From: a virus | Taxonomy: Duplodnaviria; Caudoviricetes | DNA length: 64,000 nucleotides | Reading direction: 5' to 3' (one strand) | Virus record (IMG/VR): IMGVR_UViG_3300025924_000001 | Coordinates: 32,001-96,000 of that record | Shown here: positions 1,199-36,249 of the stretch, one piece after another | How the letters are laid out: each line of letters starts with the position of its first letter | Numbering within the stretch: the first letter of the stretch is position 1 | The notes under the pieces: model-generated | The model's database searches: none | Told to the model about the DNA's origin: nothing | What the model saw: only the letters and a program-made list of their open reading frames with translations | Translations under genes and position numbers: made by a program

Positions 1199-4100
1199 GT
1201 CGTCCCCCTTCCGAACAGCGACAACCCGTTGGTGGGATTCCGGTTGTTGTACCGAAGCGTCTGCGTCTGGTTCACCGTGGCGAGCCGGCTCTCCGCGATG
1301 ACCGACCCCTCGACGTTGTTGTTGATGATGAGAACGCCACCGCCGGCGCCGGCAGCGAGCCCGGCGAGGCCACTGGGGATCCCGAGGGACCTCGGGTTGA
1401 GGCCGAGGTTGCCGCCGCGGGTGAGCTCCGACGCGATCGCGTTGACCGCGGATCGGATGGCGGGCATGCCGTTCAGCATGCCCATCGCGATGCCGGTGCT
1501 GAGGTGGATGCCGACCTCGTCGGCCATGCGCTTCGACGGTGAGCCGTGCTTGAACGCGTCCTTGAAGCCCTGAATCACGCCGGCCGCGAAGTTCATGATC
1601 TGGTCGTTCAGCCAGCCGGCAGCGTTCAGCATGCCGTGCACGAGGCCCTGAACGATCGCGAAGCCGGTGTTGATGAGCCAGGTGTTCGCGTTGCTCAGCA
1701 GGTTGAGGATCTTCCCGGGAAGGTCGCGGAACCACTTCCAGATGGCGTCGGCCGCCTGGTTGACGCCGTTGAGGAAGCCGGCGATGACCTCCATCGACCG
1801 GGCGAAGAGCCAGTTGCTGGCTCCCGTGAGGAAGTCGTCGATCCTCTTGGGCAGGTCGTTGAACCACTTCCAGAGCTCGAGAGCCTTCTTCTCGATCCCG
1901 TTCAGGAAGCCGTTGATCACGTCCTGGCCGTTCTTGTCGATCCAGTCCTTCGCGGTTGAGGTCGAGTCCTTGATCTTCTTAGGCAGGTCGACGCTGAAGT
2001 ACTTGACGACGGCCTCCGACGCCGACTTGATCCCGTCGATGATCGCCTGGCCGAGCTTGTTGCCCTCGCGCTGAATCGTTCCGACGAGCTCACCGAGCGC
2101 GTAGCCGATCTTGTAGGGCAGGTTGTTGAACGTGTCGATAACCAGCTTGCCGGCGTCGCTCGCCTTTCGCTGCAGCGTCCTCATCGCCTCGTCCCACTTC
2201 GAGCTGAGGCTGCTGCCAAGGCTGTTGAGGGCGTCACTGATCTTCTTCGGAAGACCCTGGGCCCACTGAATGAGGGACAGGCTCAGGTCGCCGAGCTTCT
2301 TCGGCAGGCTGACGAGCCACTCGCCAACCGCGGCCTCGTTCTTCATGAAGTCGGCGAAGCCCTTGCCGGCCTTGTCGAACGCCCACACGAGCCCCTCGAT
2401 CAGCTTGACCGAGATCAGGGTGATCACCTCGAGGAGGGGAACCATCTGCTTGACCAGGTCGGTGACGACCGGGATCAGTGGGGCAAGCGCTGGGATGATC
2501 TGCATCCACGCCTTACCGAGGTCCTCGAGCGCGGGCGACAGCTTCTTGATCATGTCAAGCGCCTCAGCGAGGAGGACCTTGACGAGCTGGGTGAGGGGTG
2601 GCAGCAGCGGCTTGATCGCCTCGACGAACGTCTTCATGTTCGTCCCGAGTTCCTCGCCGAACGCCTTCGCGATGTCGCTGATGAGCGGCAGCAGGGGAAT
2701 GATCGCCTTCGCGATGGCGTCGAGGCCGTCGAACAGTGCGCCGAGCGCCGGTGAGACCGCCGCGAGCACGTCGACGAGCAGCTCGCCGATCACCTTGACG
2801 AGGTCGCGGAACAGGTTAGCGAGCGGGGCCATCATCGGTTCCATGGCCTTGAAGGCCTCACCGATGACGACGACGACCTCCTTGAACGCCTCGCCGATCG
2901 CGTTGTTTCCCGACATGGACTTGAAGGTGCCGTCGAGCAGCTTCAGGAGGTCGATCATCGCCGGCATCATCACGTTGCCGATGCTGATGGCGGTCGCCTC
3001 GAGCTGAGCCTTGAACTTTGCGAACGCGAAGCTGAGGTTGCCCTGGACCTCGGAGAAGCCGAGAACGTCACCGTTCGCGTCCGTCGTCGCCGCACCCACG
3101 GCCTTGATCGCGTTGGTCAGCGAGTCGGCGCCGTCACCGGTTGCCTCCAGGGCCGCCTGCAGGCCGGGTGACGTGCCGATCAGCTTCTTCATCGCCTCGG
3201 GAACGGACTGCCCGACGGCGGCGGCGTTCTTCTCCGCAACCTGTCGCAGGTACTCGAGGGTGCCGGCGAGGCCGTCGGTGCCGAGGTGCTTCTTCACCTC
3301 GTCCTCCGAGGTGCCGAGCTCGGCGAACTCCTTCTTCATCTGCGTCGTGGGTGCGATGATGCTCTTGATCGCCGCGGCGACGTCCTGCGCGGCGCGCTGT
3401 GCGGTGGTGCCGTGGGCGGTCATCGCGGCCTCAACCGAGGCGACGTCGGCGAACGACAGGCCGACCGACGCGGCGATGGGCAGCACGGTGGCGAGGGACT
3501 TCGAGAAGGCGTCGAAGTTGGTCTTACCGAAGGAGATCGCCTCAACCATCTTGCTGGTGATGTCACCCGCGTCGCTGGCGGTGAGGTTGTAGTCCTTCAT
3601 GACCGTGGTGACGGCGTCCGCGACGTGGGACAGGTCGGCGCCCTCGTCCCTCGCGCCCTGCGCCGCGGCCTGCATCACCTTGAGACCATCCGCGGCGTGG
3701 TAGCCGGCGGACTCGATCGGGTACATCGCCTGAGCCATCTCGTTGGCCGTGAAGCCAACCTTCGTGGACATGTCCAGCAGGCCCTGGCTGACCAGGCCCA
3801 CGGCGCTCGACGACTCACCCGCGCTGGTCACGAGCCGGGTCACCGCGGCCTGGAAGTCACCGGCCATCGTGAGGCTCGCGGCACCGACCGCGGCGACCGC
3901 GAGGCCGGCCTTCTCCGCGATGGAACCGATGGAGGCTCCCGCGGCACCGAACGCCTCGCTCGAGCCCGCGGTCTTCGCGGCGGCTCCCTCGGACGCGGCC
4001 GCGGCCGCGTCCTGCGCCGCCGCGGCCGCGTCCGCGGCCTCACCGAGACGCGCGAGGGCGGCTGAGGCCTCGTCGGAGGACAGGACGATGCTCGCCGCGG

Positions 4101-4293
4101 CCTCGTCCATCGCGGCCGCGGCCTCGGTGGCGCCGGCGGTCAGCGCCTCCGAGAAGTCCGCGGCCATGGCCACGGTCTCGGTGATCGCGGCGTCGAGCTC
4201 CTCGAGGGACGCGATCGACGTCTGCAGGCTCTCCACCCACTGAGCCGTGTTGACGATCAGGTCGAGGACCGCGGGTGGAAGCTCCTCAGCCAA
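1195..4293 (-). CDS. Tape measure protein
   Basis: 1032 aa, Ala-rich helical, TP901-type core (AGDFQAAVTRL...), periodic Trp repeats, C-terminal GSPSKRM motif; follows tail chaperones. Confidence 0.92.
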   Translation of the reverse strand: MAEELPPAVLDLIVNTAQWVESLQTSIASLEELDAAITETVAMAADFSEALTAGATEAAAAMDEAAASIVLSSDEASAALARLGEAADAAAAAQDAAAAASEGAAAKTAGSSEAFGAAGASIGSIAEKAGLAVAAVGAASLTMAGDFQAAVTRLVTSAGESSSAVGLVSQGLLDMSTKVGFTANEMAQAMYPIESAGYHAADGLKVMQAAAQGARDEGADLSHVADAVTTVMKDYNLTASDAGDITSKMVEAISFGKTNFDAFSKSLATVLPIAASVGLSFADVASVEAAMTAHGTTAQRAAQDVAAAIKSIIAPTTQMKKEFAELGTSEDEVKKHLGTDGLAGTLEYLRQVAEKNAAAVGQSVPEAMKKLIGTSPGLQAALEATGDGADSLTNAIKAVGAATTDANGDVLGFSEVQGNLSFAFAKFKAQLEATAISIGNVMMPAMIDLLKLLDGTFKSMSGNNAIGEAFKEVVVVIGEAFKAMEPMMAPLANLFRDLVKVIGELLVDVLAAVSPALGALFDGLDAIAKAIIPLLPLISDIAKAFGEELGTNMKTFVEAIKPLLPPLTQLVKVLLAEALDMIKKLSPALEDLGKAWMQIIPALAPLIPVVTDLVKQMVPLLEVITLISVKLIEGLVWAFDKAGKGFADFMKNEAAVGEWLVSLPKKLGDLSLSLIQWAQGLPKKISDALNSLGSSLSSKWDEAMRTLQRKASDAGKLVIDTFNNLPYKIGYALGELVGTIQREGNKLGQAIIDGIKSASEAVVKYFSVDLPKKIKDSTSTAKDWIDKNGQDVINGFLNGIEKKALELWKWFNDLPKRIDDFLTGASNWLFARSMEVIAGFLNGVNQAADAIWKWFRDLPGKILNLLSNANTWLINTGFAIVQGLVHGMLNAAGWLNDQIMNFAAGVIQGFKDAFKHGSPSKRMADEVGIHLSTGIAMGMLNGMPAIRSAVNAIASELTRGGNLGLNPRSLGIPSGLAGLAAGAGGGVLIINNNVEGSVIAESRLATVNQTQTLRYNNRNPTNGLSLFGRGTT

Positions 4294-30486: not shown

Positions 30487-31212
<726 letters not shown>

Positions 31213-32650: not shown

Positions 32651-34399
32651 TCACCCCTCCCACGGCCACCGCCCCGCCTGCCGGTCCTCCCACGGCCACC
32701 GCCCCGCCTGCCGGGCCTCGAGGGTCGGGATCAGACCGAACGTCGCGTCGGTCAGGCCGCCGAGCTCGTAGCGGTTGGTGCCCGGCTGCGTCGGCAGCGC
32801 GGACGCCGTGTAGGCGGCGACGTTGAAGGCGTAGATCGGCACGCCGCGGGGCGCCGAGGCGTCGACGTCACCGATGTGGTAGCCGTGCATGACGTTGCCG
32901 AACGTCTGCAGGTCGGTGAGGATGATGACCCGTCGGTGGTCGTCCCGCAGGGTCTCGCTCACGGCCCGGGCGATCTCGGTGCCGCCGCCGACGCTGCCGA
33001 TGCTCTTCCGGAACGTCTCCACGGCCCGCAGCAGGCTCGTGCCGCGGTCGACGCCGGTGACGTGGAACTGCCGGTTCGCGAAGCCCCACAGGTCGACGCC
33101 GGCGGGGTTCCGGATCTTCAGGGCGAGCCCAAAGATCGCGGCCGCGGTCGCGTAGTCCATCTTCGACTTGCTGGACAGCTCGCCGTAGGTCATCGAACCG
33201 GAGGTGTCGACGAGCACGAGCGTCCGCCCGTCGAGGATCGGCACGTTCGCGAGCGAGTGGCTCAGGGCCTGCTCCAGGGCGTGACCCCACCGCAGGGACT
33301 GCACCTCCCGGTAGGCGGACCAGAACCGGAACGGCAGTTGCCGGCTCCGCTTGACCTGCTCCGGGTCGGCGAGCCGCGTGATCAGCGGCCCGGCCACGGA
33401 GTCCGGGACCCCGGCCTCGTCGAGGTTGCGAAGGTTCCGCAGCAGGGCCATGTAGCCCATGGTCGGTGCGGCGAGCTGCCAGATCTCGGCGTTGGTGATC
33501 GGTTCAACCCTGGTCGGCTTCTCACCGAGCCACGGCTTGAGCCACTCCCACTGCCCGACCATCGCACCCTGGATCAGGTCCAGGGAGACCTGGTTGCCTC
33601 GCAGGGCACCCCAGGCGAGCTCGTGCCGCTCGTCGGGCGCGTAGCGCGACAGGGTGTGCCGCAGGTGGACCTTGGTCAGGGACTCCGGCGGCTCCGCGTC
33701 GTCGCGACCCTGCCGCGCTGTGATCGCCCACCGGAACAGGTCGTCCTGCCACGAGCGCTCGGCACCGGGGACGCGGACGTTCGCGTGGGTCAGCTCGAGC
33801 ACGTCACCGAACCGGACGGCCTTGGCCTCACCGTCGTAGCGCAGGAACGCGGCCTCGTCGTAGAGGCGGGTGACGGCGTCGGCGACGCCGCGCTTGACCG
33901 GCTTCGGCAGCCGGAGCTGCGCGGTGCCGTCGTCGCGGATGACGCCCCAGCGGTGCTTCCAGTAGGCGAGCAGCTCGCCGGGCTCGTCCGCGCGCTGCAG
34001 GACGGACGTGATGAGCTCGCGGTTGCCGTCACCAACCTTGCCGGCAGCGAGCCGCGCGTGCACGGCCTCCGCGGCGAGCAGCAGGGACGCGGTGCGGATG
34101 TTGCCCGGGCCGCGCAGCCAGGAGAGGAAGGCACGCACCCACGGCCACGTCTCATCGTCGGTCGCGAGGCCGCGCACGAGCTCGCGGAGCCGGTCCGTGC
34201 CCTCATCCGCGGTCTCGTAGAACGCCTTCTCGCCGGCGAACCGCGTGGTTGCGCGGAGGAACAGCTCCGATCGAGCGTCGCGCGTGTAGCCCGGGGCGCC
34301 CTCGTGGGTCACGGTGTCGGGGGTCGAGCTGACCGTCCGCAGCGGGCCGCCGGGGGCGACGCGTCGCGGCTGGGTCGCTGCCTTGTTGAATCCTGCCAC
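32651..34399 (-). CDS. Ro60/Rsr TROVE-vWA RNA-binding protein
   Basis: THEGAPGY..D.RSELF, RADEPGELLAY, KPVKRGVADA, MGYMALLRNLRN, SRQLPFRF, MIDAS LVDTSGSM, GGT, IILTD; GTG at 34399 has GAGGAG RBS. Confidence 0.93.
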   Translation of the reverse strand: MAGFNKAATQPRRVAPGGPLRTVSSTPDTVTHEGAPGYTRDARSELFLRATTRFAGEKAFYETADEGTDRLRELVRGLATDDETWPWVRAFLSWLRGPGNIRTASLLLAAEAVHARLAAGKVGDGNRELITSVLQRADEPGELLAYWKHRWGVIRDDGTAQLRLPKPVKRGVADAVTRLYDEAAFLRYDGEAKAVRFGDVLELTHANVRVPGAERSWQDDLFRWAITARQGRDDAEPPESLTKVHLRHTLSRYAPDERHELAWGALRGNQVSLDLIQGAMVGQWEWLKPWLGEKPTRVEPITNAEIWQLAAPTMGYMALLRNLRNLDEAGVPDSVAGPLITRLADPEQVKRSRQLPFRFWSAYREVQSLRWGHALEQALSHSLANVPILDGRTLVLVDTSGSMTYGELSSKSKMDYATAAAIFGLALKIRNPAGVDLWGFANRQFHVTGVDRGTSLLRAVETFRKSIGSVGGGTEIARAVSETLRDDHRRVIILTDLQTFGNVMHGYHIGDVDASAPRGVPIYAFNVAAYTASALPTQPGTNRYELGGLTDATFGLIPTLEARQAGRWPWEDRQAGRWPWEG

Positions 34400-34432
34400 G
34401 TTCCTGACTCCTCTTCCTCGTTGGTCAGACAA

Positions 34433-34476
34433 CACGAGACCCTCAGCTCGACAGGGAGTGAGCTGAGGGTCTCGTG
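34433..34476. promoter_or_regulatory. 17-bp perfect hairpin between ncRNA array and Ro60 start
   Basis: CACGAGACCCTCAGCTC / GAGCTGAGGGTCTCGTG. Confidence 0.55.
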
Positions 34477-34548
34477 GTGGTGTGGTTCACCCCGTCACGG
34501 GTCAACCACGGTGCTCGTCACGGCGACTGATTGGACGAGGTCACGCCG

Positions 34549-34622
34549 TTGCGGGGACGGGATTTGAACCCGCGACCTGTGGGTTATGAGCCCAACGCGC
34601 TACCGAGCTGCGCCACCCCGCT
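34549..34622 (-). tRNA. tRNA-Met(CAT), initiator-type
   Basis: Cloverleaf, GGG-CT-CAT-AA-CCC anticodon arm, 1:72 mismatch, TTCAAAT T-loop; CCA not encoded. Confidence 0.9.
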
Positions 34623-34628
34623 AGGGCT

Positions 34629-34732
34629 TCGTGAGCTGGACCGGGACGAGACCTGAGGTTGACGATCGGCAATGAGGCGCAACCAATTTGCGAAGTAGCC
34701 GGTCGTCAGCGCACCGTCCCGGTCGCTCACGA
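34629..34732 (-). ncRNA. Y-RNA-like unit A (short)
   Basis: Terminal stem GACCGGGACG/CGTCCCGGTC, CGGTGCG, GGCTACTTC, GGTCTCG motifs. Confidence 0.7.
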
Positions 34733-34734
34733 GG

Positions 34735-34823
34735 TTCACCACGAGACCGGAGGTTGGCTGACGGACCGTCGCTACCGATTAAGAGTCGATTGAAGTATCC
34801 GTCGGCCTTCGCACCGTGGTGAA
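34735..34823 (-). ncRNA. Y-RNA-like unit B (short, Lys anticodon-like hairpin)
   Basis: TTCACCACG/CGTGGTGAA stem, CGGTGCGAAG, GGATACTTC, CGGTCTCG. Confidence 0.75.
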
Positions 34824-34840
34824 GATCATGTAGTTGTGGG

Positions 34841-34985
34841 TCGTCGCGAGACCGAGGCCGCTCACGGTTGATTCAGTAACGTGCTACCGATTACACTACA
34901 GCCCGAGGGGCCGACGGGACTCGAACCCGTACCTCAACCTTACGAGGGTTGTATTGAAGTAGCCGCTCGCTTCGCACCGCGACGA
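34841..34985 (-). ncRNA. YrlA-like Y RNA unit C
   Basis: Shared scaffold plus permuted tRNA domain: T arm ACGGG-TTCGAGT-CCCGT, loop-closed acceptor stem, D arm GTGT-AATCGGTA-GCAC. Confidence 0.82.
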
Positions 34986-34997
34986 TGAAGTTGTGGC

Positions 34998-35132
34998 TCA
35001 CCTCGAGACCGAAGCGCCGATCGGGGTATGCCGCTTGGCCGCTGCGGCTAACGACCGGGGTTGAGACCGGTCGATGGGATTCGAACCCACGATTCCACCA
35101 GGAAGTACCCGCTCAGCTTCGCACCGAGGTGA
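34998..35132 (-). ncRNA. YrlA-like Y RNA unit D
   Basis: Shared scaffold; T arm GTGGG-TTCGAAT-CCCAT, closed acceptor CGACCGG/CCGGTCG, D-like arm. Confidence 0.8.
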
Positions 35133-35162
35133 AGTTGTCGTGAGGGGTTGCCCTCTCACTCG

Positions 35163-35236
35163 TGGCTACCGCTGGGTTCGAACCAGCGACCTCCCCGGTT
35201 TCAACGGGGCGCTCTCCCAGCCTGAGCTAGGCAGCC
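35163..35236 (-). tRNA. tRNA-Phe(GAA)
   Basis: Cloverleaf, CCCCG-TT-GAA-AC-CGGGG. Confidence 0.9.
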
Positions 35237-35240
35237 AGGT

Positions 35241-35342
35241 GCACGATGCGGGGTCATCCCCCGCTTGAGCTCGTCTCATGGCCGAGCCCTTTCAGCGGTA
35301 CAGGAACTCGAGTACTTGTCAGCTGAAGGTTCGCCGTCGTGC
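35241..35342 (-). ncRNA. Unassigned multibranch structured RNA
   Basis: GCACGA/TCGTGC closing stem with three internal hairpins, between two tRNAs. Confidence 0.4.
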
Positions 35343-35352
35343 CGGCACCCCG

Positions 35353-35423
35353 TACCCCACGCCGGGATTGAACCGGCGCCAGCCGCTTGAGGGGCGGCCG
35401 TGCTACCACTACACCAGTGGGGC
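35353..35423 (-). tRNA. tRNA-Glu(CTC), atypical (C33)
   Basis: Cloverleaf, GCCGC-CC-CTC-AA-GCGGC. Confidence 0.75.
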
Positions 35424-35427
35424 GTGC

Positions 35428-35544
35428 GTTGATGTTGCTAAGCTGAATAGTACCACCAGGTGGGAATTGAACCCCGACCGCCCGTACGTTGCGGCTCCAT
35501 CCAGGAGGGAATTGAACCCCGACATCAGCTAGTTCAACATCAAC
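35428..35544 (-). ncRNA. Unassigned RNA with twin T-loop repeats
   Basis: 10-bp terminal stem, inner AGCTGA/TCAGCT stem, two copies of GTCGGGGTTCAATTCCCwCCTGG. Confidence 0.6.
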
Positions 35545-35569
35545 TTGCGACGGCGTACGACCGTCACCG

Positions 35570-35641
35570 CGCCGGAGACGGGGATTGAACCCGCGACCTC
35601 TCCCTCGACAGGGGAGCGCTCTTCCATTGAGCTACTCTGGC
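35570..35641 (-). tRNA. tRNA-Asp(GTC)
   Basis: Cloverleaf, CTCCC-CT-GTC-GA-GGGAG; one A:C mismatch in acceptor stem. Confidence 0.87.
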
Positions 35642-35645
35642 TTGA

Positions 35646-35791
35646 CCTCACCGAGACCGAGTGATCGCTCCCGGTTCCTATTGACTCATGCTCTGCCAAC
35701 TGAGCTACCGACTGCCTAGGCCGAAGGACGGGATTCGAACCCGTGACCCTGAGTTCCGCTGAAGTATCCGAGTGCGTTCGCACCGGTGAGG
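35646..35791 (-). ncRNA. YrlA-like Y RNA unit E
   Basis: CCTCACCG/CGGTGAGG stem, GGTGCGAA, GGATACTTC, T arm ACGGG-TTCGAAT-CCCGT, D arm GCTC-AGTTGGCA-GAGC, ACTCA/TGAGT stem. Confidence 0.82.
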
Positions 35792-35858
35792 CTCGTGCTG
35801 ATCGCTGGTTGAGCCGGCGAGCGTCGGGGGGTCTTAAACCCGCCGGTTGAACTGGCGA

Positions 35859-35956
35859 TGGTGAAACCGTACCATCCGTCGTCGAGCGCTGTCCAGGGCT
35901 ATTCTCAACAACTTTTACTGTTTACAAGCGACCCTCAGCGTGGTACGGTTTCACCA
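35859..35956. promoter_or_regulatory. Divergent promoter pair
   Basis: Minus: TGGACA-N18-TACGGT; plus: TTTACA-N17-TACGGT; both share TGGTACGGTTTCACCA. Confidence 0.7.
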
Positions 35957-35985
35957 GTCAAGGCGACCGAGCGAGGAGCGAGAGC

Positions 35986-36249
35986 GTGAACGAGGGCAGT
36001 GAGGTCTACCTGAGAACCGACGCGAGGCGTCGGACCATGGGCATCATCGTCAAGGACCTGGGCGGCAAGCCGGGCAAGCGTCGGTTCACGGTCGCGTGGA
36101 TCGACACCGGCGGCAAGCCCACCGATCACCTGGAAGCGGACCTCGTCGAGGTTCCGAGCGCGATCAACACCGTGACCGGCAACGTTGCCGGCAACGTCAT
36201 CCAGACGAGCACCTTCAACGGCTCCATCACCTTCAACCAGCGCGGCTGA
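35986..36249 (+). CDS. Hypothetical protein
   Basis: GAGGAG RBS, first gene after promoter. Confidence 0.65.
   Translation: MNEGSEVYLRTDARRRTMGIIVKDLGGKPGKRRFTVAWIDTGGKPTDHLEADLVEVPSAINTVTGNVAGNVIQTSTFNGSITFNQRG

What the first reader, a model, noticed from the sequence alone, without database searches (positions are those of the whole stretch)
32651..35791. Ro60 with a five-member modular Y RNA array interleaved with tRNAs
Seen: upstream of and co-oriented with the TROVE gene, five units (34629-34732, 34735-34823, 34841-34985, 34998-35132, 35646-35791) each have a different but fully paired terminal stem, which amounts to internal covariation. All carry CGGUGCG(AA)...GGNUACUUC...GGUCUCG, and the apical module differs in every unit. 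Known: bacterial Ro60 binds adjacent Y RNAs (typically one or two described, e.g. YrlA/YrlB), YrlA has a tRNA-like domain, and GGUGCGAAG is one base from the GGUCCGAAG Ro-binding strand of vertebrate Y RNA. Inference: one phage Ro60 loaded with a repertoire of interchangeable RNA adaptors or decoys, i.e. a constant protein-binding handle with variable cargo.
Basis: partly seen in the sequence, partly recalled or inferred. Interest (0 to 1): 0.92.

Follow-up and report, generated by a model that had tools for sequence, protein, structure and literature searches.

The report
Phage Ro60 with five Y RNAs
A 112-kb actinobacterial phage carries a Ro60 RNA-binding protein gene preceded by five small Y-RNA genes and four tRNA genes. 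The locus is real, but it is a large example of an arrangement that I found to be routine, though unannotated, beside Ro60 genes in Actinomycetota and their phages.

Summary
Five co-oriented units on the minus strand share CGGUGCG...GGNUACUUC...GGUCUCG, and each is closed by a different, fully paired stem. The compound motif occurs 5 times, only here, against 0.03 expected.

A covariance model built only from distant viral and phage units finds exactly these five places in the whole 111,864-bp genome (79.5, 75.3, 62.0, 31.6 and 22-25 bits). Units 5, 3 and 4 are YrlA-like, with T arm, closed acceptor-like stem and D arm. Units 2 and 1 are short, YrlB-like hairpins. The downstream ORF is a bona fide Ro60 (TROVE plus vWA).

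The array is not exceptional:
- The same unit type forms unannotated arrays of 3-6 beside Ro60 in the 9 GenBank actinophages examined.
- It forms arrays of 2-6 in IMG/VR contigs.
- It forms arrays of mostly 2-4 upstream of Ro60 in 76 actinobacterial genomes.

Phage Ro60 with adjacent Y RNAs is already published (Chen 2014; phiLo 2025). The "repertoire of adaptors or decoys" idea is untested but fits the modular Y RNA model. Recurring subtypes in distant arrays give it some support. No expression or binding data could be obtained.

Verdict: a new, large member of a known kind, of moderate interest. Other first-stage notes in this scan describe the same stretch of this same genome, not other DNA.

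The parts
32651..34399 (-). Ro60/Rsr gene (TROVE + vWA). The ORF is open up to 34435, but the conserved start is the GTG at 34399.
   Evidence: Pfam TROVE 5.1e-12, 46.2 bits against a cut-off of 23, with weak vWA hits. PDB phiLo Ro60 9KOP/9L5Y 7e-25 and D. radiodurans Rsr 2NVO 3e-11. 35-40% identity to actinophage 'Ro-like RNA binding protein'. Invariant DxSxS (MIDAS) in alignment A5. Start conserved in L007 and L009.
34432..34477 (-). Strong 17-bp hairpin between tRNA-Met and the Ro60 ribosome-binding site. Candidate U-poor terminator or attenuator, or a processing or 5'-protecting hairpin.
   Evidence: The 34425-34547 stretch folds with z = -5.4. Hairpins with U-tracts sit at the same place in phages Satis, VanLee and BRock. 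The consensus terminator scan did not call it.
34548..34622 (-). tRNA-Met (CAU)
   Evidence: ARAGORN; Rfam tRNA 60.8 bits.
34629..34732 (-). Y RNA unit 1: short, YrlB-like. Double closing stem, handle GGUGCGCUG...GGCUACUUC...GGUCUCG, small apical hairpin. Core 34644-34719.
   Evidence: Fold z = -5.2. R2 matches the handle only: 22.1 bits and 25.1 bits. Orthologues in L009 and L007 carry A-U to G-C and G-U changes in the stem.
34735..34823 (-). Y RNA unit 2: short, YrlB-like. Its apical 5-bp stem carries the 7-nt loop CUCUUAA.
   Evidence: R2 31.6 bits, E 1.4e-4, handle only. Fold. P2 helix covaries in alignment A3.
34841..34985 (-). Y RNA unit 3: YrlA-like. V stem-loop (loop CUCGUAA), T arm, closed acceptor-like stem, D arm of the GUGU/GCAC subtype.
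   Evidence: R2 75.3 bits, E 3e-13. Rfam YrlA partial match 32.9 bits, E 7e-5, and tRNA model 24.3 bits, below its threshold of 29. Closing stem has a compensatory U-A to A-U change in L009 and L007.
34998..35132 (-). Y RNA unit 4: YrlA-like with T arm and acceptor-like stem, but a non-canonical D arm (GCCGC...GCGGC).
   Evidence: R2 62.0 bits, E 1.4e-10, with low alignment confidence in the D arm. Fold z = -2.6. The orthologue in L009 and L007 has the same variant arm.
35162..35236 (-). tRNA-Phe (GAA)
35237..35351 (-). Spacer RNA with a hairpin whose loop (AGUACUCGAGUYCCUG) is conserved in L009 while its stem differs.
   Evidence: Read by eye. Fold z = -2.1. Not analysed further.
35352..35423 (-). 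tRNA-Glu (CUC)
35428..35545 (-). Rod-like RNA closed by a 10-bp stem and enclosing two T-arm-like hairpins (GGGGUUCAAUUCCC twice). It has no Ro handle.
   Evidence: The stretch containing it (35424-35568) folds with z = -3.9. The L009 counterpart (about 4068-4160) has a completely different but complementary 10-bp closing stem. R2 does not match it.
35569..35641 (-). tRNA-Asp (GUC)
35646..35791 (-). Y RNA unit 5: canonical YrlA-like. T arm, acceptor-like stem and D arm of the GCUC/GAGC subtype. An ACUCA/UGAGU stem leads into the handle.
   Evidence: R2 79.5 bits, E 5e-14. Rfam YrlA partial match 29.1 bits, E 9e-4, model positions 23-85.
35858..35956 (.). AT-rich island, conserved in L009, between two 17-bp inverted repeats (GGTGAAACCGTACCA-type). 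Candidate divergent promoter/operator for the ncRNA operon.
   Evidence: Inverted repeat visible (spurious mir-9413 match). Island conserved in L009 3330-3400. The sigma-70 consensus scan found nothing, so this is inference only.

Best explanation
The locus is a phage copy of the actinobacterial Rsr (Ro60)/Y RNA module.

Transcription and processing (inferred). An ncRNA operon of about 1.4 kb on the minus strand, roughly 35,930 down to 34,430, is transcribed as one precursor. It holds five Y RNAs, four tRNAs and at least two other structured RNAs. Host RNase P and RNase Z would cut at the tRNAs. RNase E would cut at single-stranded ACAA|CUUCA-type spacers. A strong hairpin separates the operon from the Ro60 gene.

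Unit anatomy (shown). Each Y RNA has the same handle:
- a closing stem P1;
- an internal loop whose 5' strand is the conserved GGUGCG(A)AG;
- a second helix P2 ending in CGG;
- the invariant NUACUUC.

Ro60 binding (inferred by homology). The phage Ro60 ring is expected to bind this handle, as Ro60 binds the GGUCCGA strand of vertebrate Y RNA.

Distal modules. Three are tRNA-like L-shapes of different subtypes (units 5, 3, 4) and two are simple hairpins (units 2, 1). By analogy with D. radiodurans, Salmonella and Thermus phage phiLo, the tRNA-like Y RNAs would tether Ro60 to a host effector such as PNPase, or to a protein that binds the tRNA elbow. The short ones would gate or regulate Ro60. 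The RNP would then reshape structured-RNA turnover or quality control during infection, possibly of the phage's own tRNAs.

Shown versus inferred. Shown: motifs, helices and covariation, family membership, strict linkage to Ro60. Inferred: co-transcription, processing, Ro60 binding and the effector.
For: - Motif statistics: 5 matches against 0.03 expected.
- Five different, perfectly paired closing stems in a fixed register.
- Ro60 identity.
- Partial YrlA hits in units 3 and 5.
- Relatives with 75% identical Ro60 (L009, L007) keep orthologues of all five units, with compensatory or G-U-compatible changes.
- On 28 short units from many genomes, P1+P2 are 89.7% paired against 66.8% in shuffles and 29-47% in slid controls. 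Covariation is 0.552 against 0.154, with 0 of 500 shuffles reaching it. P2, which my unit finder did not select for, is 92.6% and 84.5% paired.
- On 28 long units, RNAalifold recovers P1, P2, T arm, acceptor-like stem and D arm, and 19 of 24 pairs show compensatory changes.
- Model R2, built without any window-clade sequence, hits exactly the five units in the window and in the whole genome.
- In IMG/VR, every locus with two or more units has a Ro60 homologue immediately downstream on the same strand.
- The same arrays sit upstream of Ro60 in 75 of 76 actinobacterial genomes.
- Published precedent: Y RNAs lie within 4 kb of Ro60 on the same strand, only the 5' strand is conserved, and M. smegmatis YrlA and YrlB are processed from one precursor (PMC4201824; bioRxiv 312249).
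- Phage phiLo Ro60 binds two upstream Y-like RNAs and assembles with host PNPase (PMC12135203).
- The spacer motif AACUU is enriched about 9-fold upstream of units, 19% against 2%. It fits the mycobacterial RNase E preference RN|CNU (PMC10641625).
Against:
- No unit reaches the Rfam YrlA gathering score (32.9 and 29.1 bits against 69).
- Unit 1 lacks CGAA.
- The published motif GNCGAAN0-1G is matched only as UGCGAAG.
- The acceptor-like stem of unit 5 pairs poorly in this phage, although it pairs well in L009.
- No consensus promoter or terminator was found.
- The host is unknown, so the RNase E argument borrows mycobacterial data.
- The phage encodes no RtcB or CCA-adding enzyme that would point to an RNA-repair context.
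- P1 covariation in my alignments is partly circular, because units were picked by requiring a closing stem.
Confidence: 0.78

Rival explanations
1. Decoy reading. The units are Y-RNA-shaped, but their main role is to act as non-chargeable tRNA mimics, some displaying anticodon-like 7-nt loops. They would soak up or misdirect host nucleases or toxins that target tRNA, with Ro60 merely stabilising them.
For: - Three units carry tRNA-like cores.
- Units 2 and 3 have 5-bp stems with CU-NNN-AA loops.
- Similar loops (CUGCUAA, CUGUUAA, CUCUUAA, CUCAUAA) recur in other arrays.
- The array is embedded in a tRNA cluster, and phage tRNA clusters are often interpreted as a counter-defence.
Against: - The same arrays are standard in cellular actinobacterial Ro60 loci, where a phage counter-defence role makes no sense.
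- The loops are not conserved as anticodons between close relatives: unit 3 is CUCGUAA here and CUGAUUA in L009; unit 2 is CUCUUAA here, CUGCUAA in L009 and CACCAAU in L007.
- One loop, CUGCUAA, dominates across the family, which looks more like a binding motif than a set of mimics.
- Canonical YrlA units (unit 5) have no anticodon loop.
Confidence: 0.1
2. Redundancy reading. The five units are functionally equivalent Ro60 ligands kept for dosage. The variety in the distal modules is neutral drift after duplication.
For: All units share one handle. Array size varies freely, from 2 to 6, among related genomes.
Against: - Distinct subtypes recur together in very distant arrays: D arm GCUC/GAGC, D arm GUGU/GCAC, and short hairpins.
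- Orthologues of each of the five units are kept one-to-one at 75% Ro60 identity.
- Module helices covary rather than decay.
Confidence: 0.08
3. The units are not stable RNAs. They are cis-acting leader or processing structures of the tRNA/Ro60 transcript, or decaying tRNA pseudogenes.
For: They lie upstream of Ro60 on the same strand, within a tRNA cluster. ARAGORN calls some homologous units tRNAs in bacterial loci. GenBank annotates a 'tRNA' at such positions in Alone3 and Frankenweenie.
Against: - The conserved non-tRNA handle, with covariation, is shared by units that have no tRNA-like part.
- In Arthrobacter phage Atuin, units lie both upstream and downstream of Ro60.
- Homologous M. smegmatis RNAs are stable and bound by Rsr.
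- ARAGORN finds no tRNA in the five units here.
Confidence: 0.04

Closest known systems
Bacterial YrlA/YrlB Y RNAs with Rsr (Chen et al. 2014, RNA 20:1715; Rfam RF02553), e.g. the M. smegmatis YrlA-YrlB-rsr locus
   Same: - Encoded just upstream of Ro60 on the same strand.
- The 5' and 3' ends pair into a long stem.
- A conserved 5'-strand CGAA-type motif.
- One class has a T arm, closed acceptor stem and D arm; another class is a simple hairpin.
- Several Y RNAs per locus.
- In M. smegmatis, processing from one precursor.
   Different: - Five units rather than the two characterised.
- Rfam scores are far below the gathering threshold.
- The motif reads GGUGCG(A)AG rather than GNCGAAN0-1G.
- An invariant NUACUUC element closes P2.
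- A 3'-strand motif (GGUCUCG) is conserved within the clade.
- tRNA genes and other structured RNAs lie within the operon.
- The carrier is a lytic-type 112-kb phage genome.
Thermus phage phiLo Ro60 with Yrl1 and Yrl2 (NAR 2025, PMC12135203; PDB 9KOP, 9L5Y)
   Same: A phage-encoded Ro60 with Y-like RNA genes immediately upstream. It is the best PDB match of the protein (E 7e-25). It provides experimental precedent for binding and for a Ro60-Y RNA-PNPase complex with host PNPase.
   Different: Two RNAs rather than five. The host lineage differs. The tblastn match to the phiLo Ro60 gene shows only 27% protein identity. Nothing has been tested for this phage.
Unannotated Y RNA arrays beside 'Ro-like RNA binding protein' genes of cultured actinophages (Streptomyces Alone3, pSt2308, BRock and Satis; Gordonia VanLee and Neville; Arthrobacter Atuin)
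   Same: Same unit architecture and NUACUUC element. Arrays hold 3-6 units, often inside tRNA clusters, with a terminator-like hairpin before Ro60.
   Different: Ro60 is only 35-40% identical. The 5' and 3' handle motifs are lineage-specific (GAUGCGUAG...CUUUUUCUAG, GGAGCGUU...UGUUGGCC and others). These phages are in culture, so they are the practical test systems.
Vertebrate Y RNAs (hY1, hY3, hY4, hY5; X. laevis Y3)
   Same: Modular design: a terminal stem carrying the Ro60 site plus a variable effector loop, with 2-4 paralogues per species. GGUGCGA differs by one base from GGUCCGA.
   Different: The Rfam Y_RNA model gives no detectable match. The bulged-C helix is absent. The effector modules here are tRNA-like.

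Membership tests
Ro60 / Rsr (TROVE + vWA ring protein) | TROVE domain | tested here: met
   Pfam PF05731, E 5.1e-12, 46.2 bits against a cut-off of 23.
Ro60 / Rsr (TROVE + vWA ring protein) | C-terminal vWA domain with MIDAS DxSxS | tested here: met
   The vWA-type Pfam hits at residues 404-508 are below their cut-offs (20-21 bits). However, D398, S400 and S402 are invariant in the 13-sequence alignment A5.
Ro60 / Rsr (TROVE + vWA ring protein) | Sequence homology to solved Ro60 rings | tested here: met
   phiLo Ro60 9KOP/9L5Y, E 7e-25. D. radiodurans Rsr 2NVO, E 3.4e-11.
Bacterial Y RNA (YrlA, RF02553) | Encoded within about 4 kb of Ro60 on the same strand | tested here: met
   All five units lie 230-1,390 nt upstream of the Ro60 start on the minus strand.
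Bacterial Y RNA (YrlA, RF02553) | 5' and 3' ends pair into a stem carrying the conserved 5'-strand motif GNCGAAN0-1G | tested here: inconclusive
   The stem is present in 5 of 5 units. The motif reads UGCGAAG or UGCGAAC in four units and UGCGCUG in unit 1, so the CGAA core is met in 4 of 5 but the published pattern is not matched exactly.
Bacterial Y RNA (YrlA, RF02553) | tRNA-like module: T arm, closed acceptor stem-loop, UA, D arm | tested here: met
   Met for units 3 and 5 (Rfam partial alignments; R2). Unit 4 has the T arm and acceptor-like stem but an aberrant D arm. Units 1 and 2 lack the module and are YrlB-like.
Bacterial Y RNA (YrlA, RF02553) | Score at or above the Rfam gathering threshold (69 bits) | tested here: not met
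   The best scores are 32.9 and 29.1 bits, as local matches to the tRNA-like core only. Cultured actinophage units also stay below threshold (33-47 bits). The Rfam model therefore under-covers this clade.
Bacterial Y RNA (YrlA, RF02553) | Bound and stabilised by Ro60 | not testable with these tools
   Needs RIP, EMSA or Northern blots.
Actinomycetota/actinophage Y RNA clade (model R2, built here) | Full-length match to a covariance model built from units of other genomes | tested here: met
   Scores are 79.5, 75.3 and 62.0 bits for units 5, 3 and 4. Units 2 and 1 match through the handle only, at 31.6 and 22-25 bits. There are no other hits in the 111,864-bp genome.
tRNA | Cloverleaf with a free acceptor end, detected by ARAGORN or the Rfam tRNA model | tested here: not met
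   ARAGORN finds only the four real tRNAs. Unit 3 scores 24.3 bits against a threshold of 29, and its acceptor is closed by a loop.

The most novel reading that the evidence does not exclude
The array is a true functional repertoire. The subtypes are the GCUC-type tRNA-like unit, the GUGU-type tRNA-like unit, the variant D-arm unit, and hairpins carrying anticodon-like CU-NNN-AA loops. Each would couple the single phage Ro60 ring to a different host partner or target. At least one would act as a tRNA decoy or adaptor that protects or polices the phage-encoded tRNAs against host systems that target tRNA. Ro60/Y RNA modules would then be a general companion of tRNA arrays in Actinomycetota and their phages.
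Probability: 0.15. Interest if true: 0.8.

Novelty: new member of a known kind. Interest (0 to 1): 0.4.

Why it matters
For this locus alone, little changes. Phage Ro60 genes with adjacent Y RNAs were reported in 2014, and one was characterised biochemically in 2025.

The follow-up does add four things:
- A covariation-supported model of an actinobacterial and actinophage Y RNA clade that Rfam's YrlA model misses at its threshold.
- Evidence that arrays of 3-6 Y RNAs, with recurring subtypes, are the norm next to Ro60 in these lineages. In GenBank phage records they are unannotated, and some are mis-annotated as small ORFs or tRNAs.
- An invariant NUACUUC element of unknown role.
- A frequent physical link between Ro60/Y RNA modules and tRNA clusters or arrays.

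Several of the phages are in culture with tractable hosts (Streptomyces, Gordonia, Arthrobacter). The open question of what bacterial Y RNA modules recruit could therefore be addressed there.

Tried and rejected
- Megablast of the locus against GenBank phages gave no match.
- Rfam at gathering thresholds found only the four tRNAs.
- A plain MAFFT plus RNAalifold run on ragged short units failed to recover P1, because the ends were out of register. I fixed this by trimming every unit to a 6-bp P1.
- Model R1, built from short units, does not find the long units because of the large insert. I replaced it with R2.
- The consensus promoter and terminator scan found nothing in 34300-36100.
- The supplementary tables of Chen 2014 and two Wolin-lab reviews are not held. 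I could not check how many Y RNAs per phage were listed there.
- Searches of the phage genome for RtcB and a CCA-adding enzyme were negative.
- Pfam and PHROGs gave no function for the immediate protein-coding neighbours, apart from terminase and tape measure further away.
- Most single-match loci from the IMG/VR pattern scan have no Ro60 nearby. I treated them as chance matches.
- I considered a mobile-repeat (MITE/REP) explanation and rejected it, because units occur only beside Ro60 and nowhere else in the genome.

Full report
What is there. The window is bases 32001-96000 of a 111,864-bp IMG/VR virus record with direct terminal repeats. It has 68.5% G+C and encodes a tape measure protein and a large terminase.

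On the minus strand an ORF at 32651-34435 encodes a Ro60/Rsr protein:
- Pfam TROVE scores 46.2 bits against a cut-off of 23, with weak vWA hits.
- The best solved relatives are the Ro60 of Thermus phage phiLo (E 7e-25) and D. radiodurans Rsr (E 3e-11).
- It is 35-40% identical to the 'Ro-like RNA binding protein' of Gordonia, Streptomyces and Arthrobacter phages.
- It is 44-50% identical to chromosomal Ro60 of Actinomadura, Streptosporangium, Lentzea and Streptomyces.
- The conserved start is the GTG at 34399, seen as ATG or GTG at the homologous place in relatives.

Upstream, still on the minus strand and reading 5' to 3', lie:
- unit 5;
- tRNA-Asp;
- a rod-like RNA with two T-arm-like hairpins;
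- tRNA-Glu;
- a spacer hairpin;
- tRNA-Phe;
- units 4, 3, 2 and 1 in tandem;
- tRNA-Met;
- a 17-bp hairpin;
- the Ro60 ribosome-binding site.

Check of the observation. The compound motif CGGTGCG-N10-30-TACTTC occurs five times in 64 kb, against 0.03 expected. All five are at the stated units and on the Ro60 strand. Each unit ends with GGTCTCG. The six to eight bases flanking these fixed motifs are perfectly complementary in every unit, and the sequences differ between units. Two details need correcting. Unit 1 has GCGCUG instead of GCGAAG. Only unit 5 is separated from the rest by tRNAs.

Are they Y RNAs? The Rfam YrlA model gives sub-threshold local matches to the T arm, acceptor-like stem and D arm cores of unit 3 (32.9 bits) and unit 5 (29.1 bits). 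The gathering score is 69, so Rfam membership is formally not met. I therefore tested the units against relatives.

Close relatives. Three IMG/VR contigs with 75-76% identical Ro60 retain orthologues of the units that their sequence covers, all five in L009. The closing stems show compensatory or G-U-compatible changes. For example, UCGUCG/CGACGA becomes UCGACG/CGUCGA in unit 3.

Cultured actinophages. In nine GenBank actinophages, the unannotated gap before the Ro60 gene holds three to six units of the same build. Each has:
- a closing stem;
- G(G/A)(U/A)GCG(N)AG;
- a second helix ending in CGG;
- an invariant NUACUUC;
- a variable module;
- a lineage-specific 3' motif.
Only the 5' strand is conserved across lineages. 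This is what Chen et al. and Wang et al. report for bacterial Y RNAs.

IMG/VR scan. A pattern scan of IMG/VR followed by tblastn showed that every contig with two or more units has a Ro60 homologue (36-50% identity) immediately downstream on the same strand. Isolated single matches lack one and look like chance.

Covariation. I aligned 28 short units, each trimmed to a 6-bp closing stem. The P1+P2 structure is 89.7% paired, against 66.8% in shuffles and 29-47% when partners are slid. The covariation score is 0.552 against 0.154, with 0 of 500 shuffles reaching it. P1 was a selection criterion of my unit finder, so that part is circular. P2 was not selected for, and it is 92.6% and 84.5% paired, with many double changes.

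On 28 long units, none from the window clade, RNAalifold recovers P1, P2, T arm, acceptor-like stem and D arm. Compensatory changes occur at 19 of 24 pairs.

The covariance model from that alignment (R2) finds exactly five places in the window and in the whole phage genome:
- unit 5: 79.5 bits, E 5e-14;
- unit 3: 75.3 bits;
- unit 4: 62.0 bits;
- unit 2: 31.6 bits, through the handle only;
- unit 1: 22-25 bits, through the handle only.
E-values from this model are rough, but the bit scores and the absence of other hits are clear. Unit 4 aligns poorly in the D arm, and its orthologues share the same variant arm.

How unusual is five? Not very. With R2 and motif counts, array sizes are:
- Satis 3, Frankenweenie 3, JustBecause 3;
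- VanLee 4, BRock 4, Neville 4;
- pSt2308 5, Alone3 5;
- Atuin 6;
- 2-6 in IMG/VR contigs.

In 76 actinobacterial genomes with a Ro60 of 43-50% identity, the 1.6 kb upstream holds the following:

| Units | 0 | 1 | 2 | 3 | 4 | 5 |
|---|---|---|---|---|---|---|
| Genomes | 1 | 4 | 26 | 36 | 8 | 1 |

Mixed arrays of short and long units are the rule. The long units include two recurring D-arm subtypes, GCUC/GAGC and GUGU/GCAC (a crude classifier). The window phage has one of each subtype, one variant and two short units. Multiplicity with subtype diversity is therefore a property of the whole actinobacterial Ro60 module, which phages carry. This phage sits at the upper end.

In several Micromonosporaceae genomes the module directly follows a tRNA array of 20-30 genes that ends in tRNA-Met. 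This echoes the tRNA context seen here and in BRock, pSt2308, Alone3 and Atuin.

Mechanism. The anatomy, the helices and the linkage to Ro60 are shown. The rest is inferred from published systems:
- M. smegmatis YrlA and YrlB are processed from one precursor and bound by Rsr.
- Y RNAs tether Ro60 to PNPase in D. radiodurans and Salmonella.
- The Ro60 of phage phiLo binds two upstream Y-like RNAs and assembles with host PNPase.

I therefore read the locus as a polycistronic ncRNA operon. Its tRNAs would give RNase P and RNase Z entry points. Its single-stranded spacers would be RNase E sites. ACAACUUCA precedes units 4 and 3, and ACAACUACA precedes unit 2. AACUU is enriched about 9-fold before units across the family, and it fits the mycobacterial RNase E preference RN|CNU.

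The 17-bp hairpin before the Ro60 ribosome-binding site lies where Satis, VanLee and BRock have hairpins followed by U-tracts. It probably uncouples RNA and protein dosage. Neither it nor a promoter was called by the consensus scans. The AT-rich island flanked by 17-bp inverted repeats at 35858-35956 is only a candidate promoter/operator.

The decoy version is weakened in two ways. The same arrays occur in cellular genomes. The anticodon-like loops also change between close relatives.

Novelty and score. Phage Ro60 with Y RNAs is known: 22 phages in Chen 2014, and biochemistry for phiLo in 2025. This is a new, large member of that kind. I found no paper describing 3-6 member arrays, the NUACUUC element or the subtype structure.

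Earlier first-stage notes of this scan concern this same stretch of the same genome. They gave me the leads on the spacer motif, the anticodon-like loops and the twin T-loop RNA, each of which I checked only partly.

Noticed in passing
window 35428-35545 (-); L009 about 4068-4160: A rod-like RNA lies between tRNA-Asp and tRNA-Glu. It is closed by a 10-bp stem and encloses two near-identical T-arm-like hairpins (GGGGUUCAAUUCCC), each followed by a short stem. It has no Ro handle and model R2 does not match it. The L009 counterpart has a completely different but complementary 10-bp closing stem and ends in the same GGUGGUA.
   Followed up: partly
window 35290-35330 (-); L009 about 3725-3760: A hairpin lies between tRNA-Glu and tRNA-Phe. 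Its loop (AGUACUCGAGUYCCUG) is conserved in L009, while its stem differs (UUCAGC/GCUGAA here, CCACGG/CCGUGG in L009).
   Followed up: no
window 34824-34840, 34986-34997, 35133-35145 (-); also bacterial and phage loci: The spacer motif ACAACU(U/A)CA lies just 5' of units 2, 3 and 4. AACUU occurs within 40 nt upstream of 19% of 306 units across viral and bacterial loci, against 2% background. It fits the mycobacterial RNase E preference RN|CNU.
   Followed up: partly
window 34774-34790 and 34935-34951 (-); alignments A3 and A4: Units 2 and 3 carry 5-bp stems with 7-nt CU-NNN-AA loops (CUCUUAA, CUCGUAA). Such loops recur at this position in many family members, with CUGCUAA the most frequent, alongside a second loop class (UUUGGGA, UCUGGA). 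They are not conserved as anticodons between close relatives.
   Followed up: partly
L142, L154, L168, L201, L152 (Micromonosporaceae and related genomes), 0-3.2 kb upstream of Ro60: In these genomes, tRNA arrays (20-30 genes in four of them, six genes in L152) end in tRNA-Met and run directly into the Y RNA array and the Ro60 gene. The two tRNA-array papers that surfaced in my searches do not mention this link between tRNA arrays and Ro60/Y RNA modules.
   Followed up: no
L016 (Gordonia phage Neville) 2376-2786; L017 (Alone3) 2774-2847; L015 (Frankenweenie) 2778-2868: GenBank annotations overlap Y RNA units. Three small 'hypothetical protein' CDS in Neville, a 'tRNA-Ser' in Alone3 and a 91-nt 'tRNA-Pro' in Frankenweenie coincide with R2 or motif hits. 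They are probably mis-annotations.
   Followed up: partly
L018 (Streptomyces phage JustBecause) 2229-2981: An annotated RNA ligase gene sits between the three-unit Y RNA array and Ro60. This recalls the rsr-yrlBA-rtcBA operon of Salmonella. The window phage has no RtcB or CCA-adding enzyme.
   Followed up: partly
window 35858-35875 and 35940-35956: Seventeen-bp inverted repeats (GGTGAAACCGTACCA-type) flank a conserved AT-rich island between the ncRNA operon and the divergent plus-strand genes. This is a possible operator pair around a divergent promoter.
   Followed up: no
window 30487-31191 (-): Earlier first-stage notes flag a secreted Rpf-LysM gene just downstream of the Ro60 block. I did not examine it here.
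   Followed up: no
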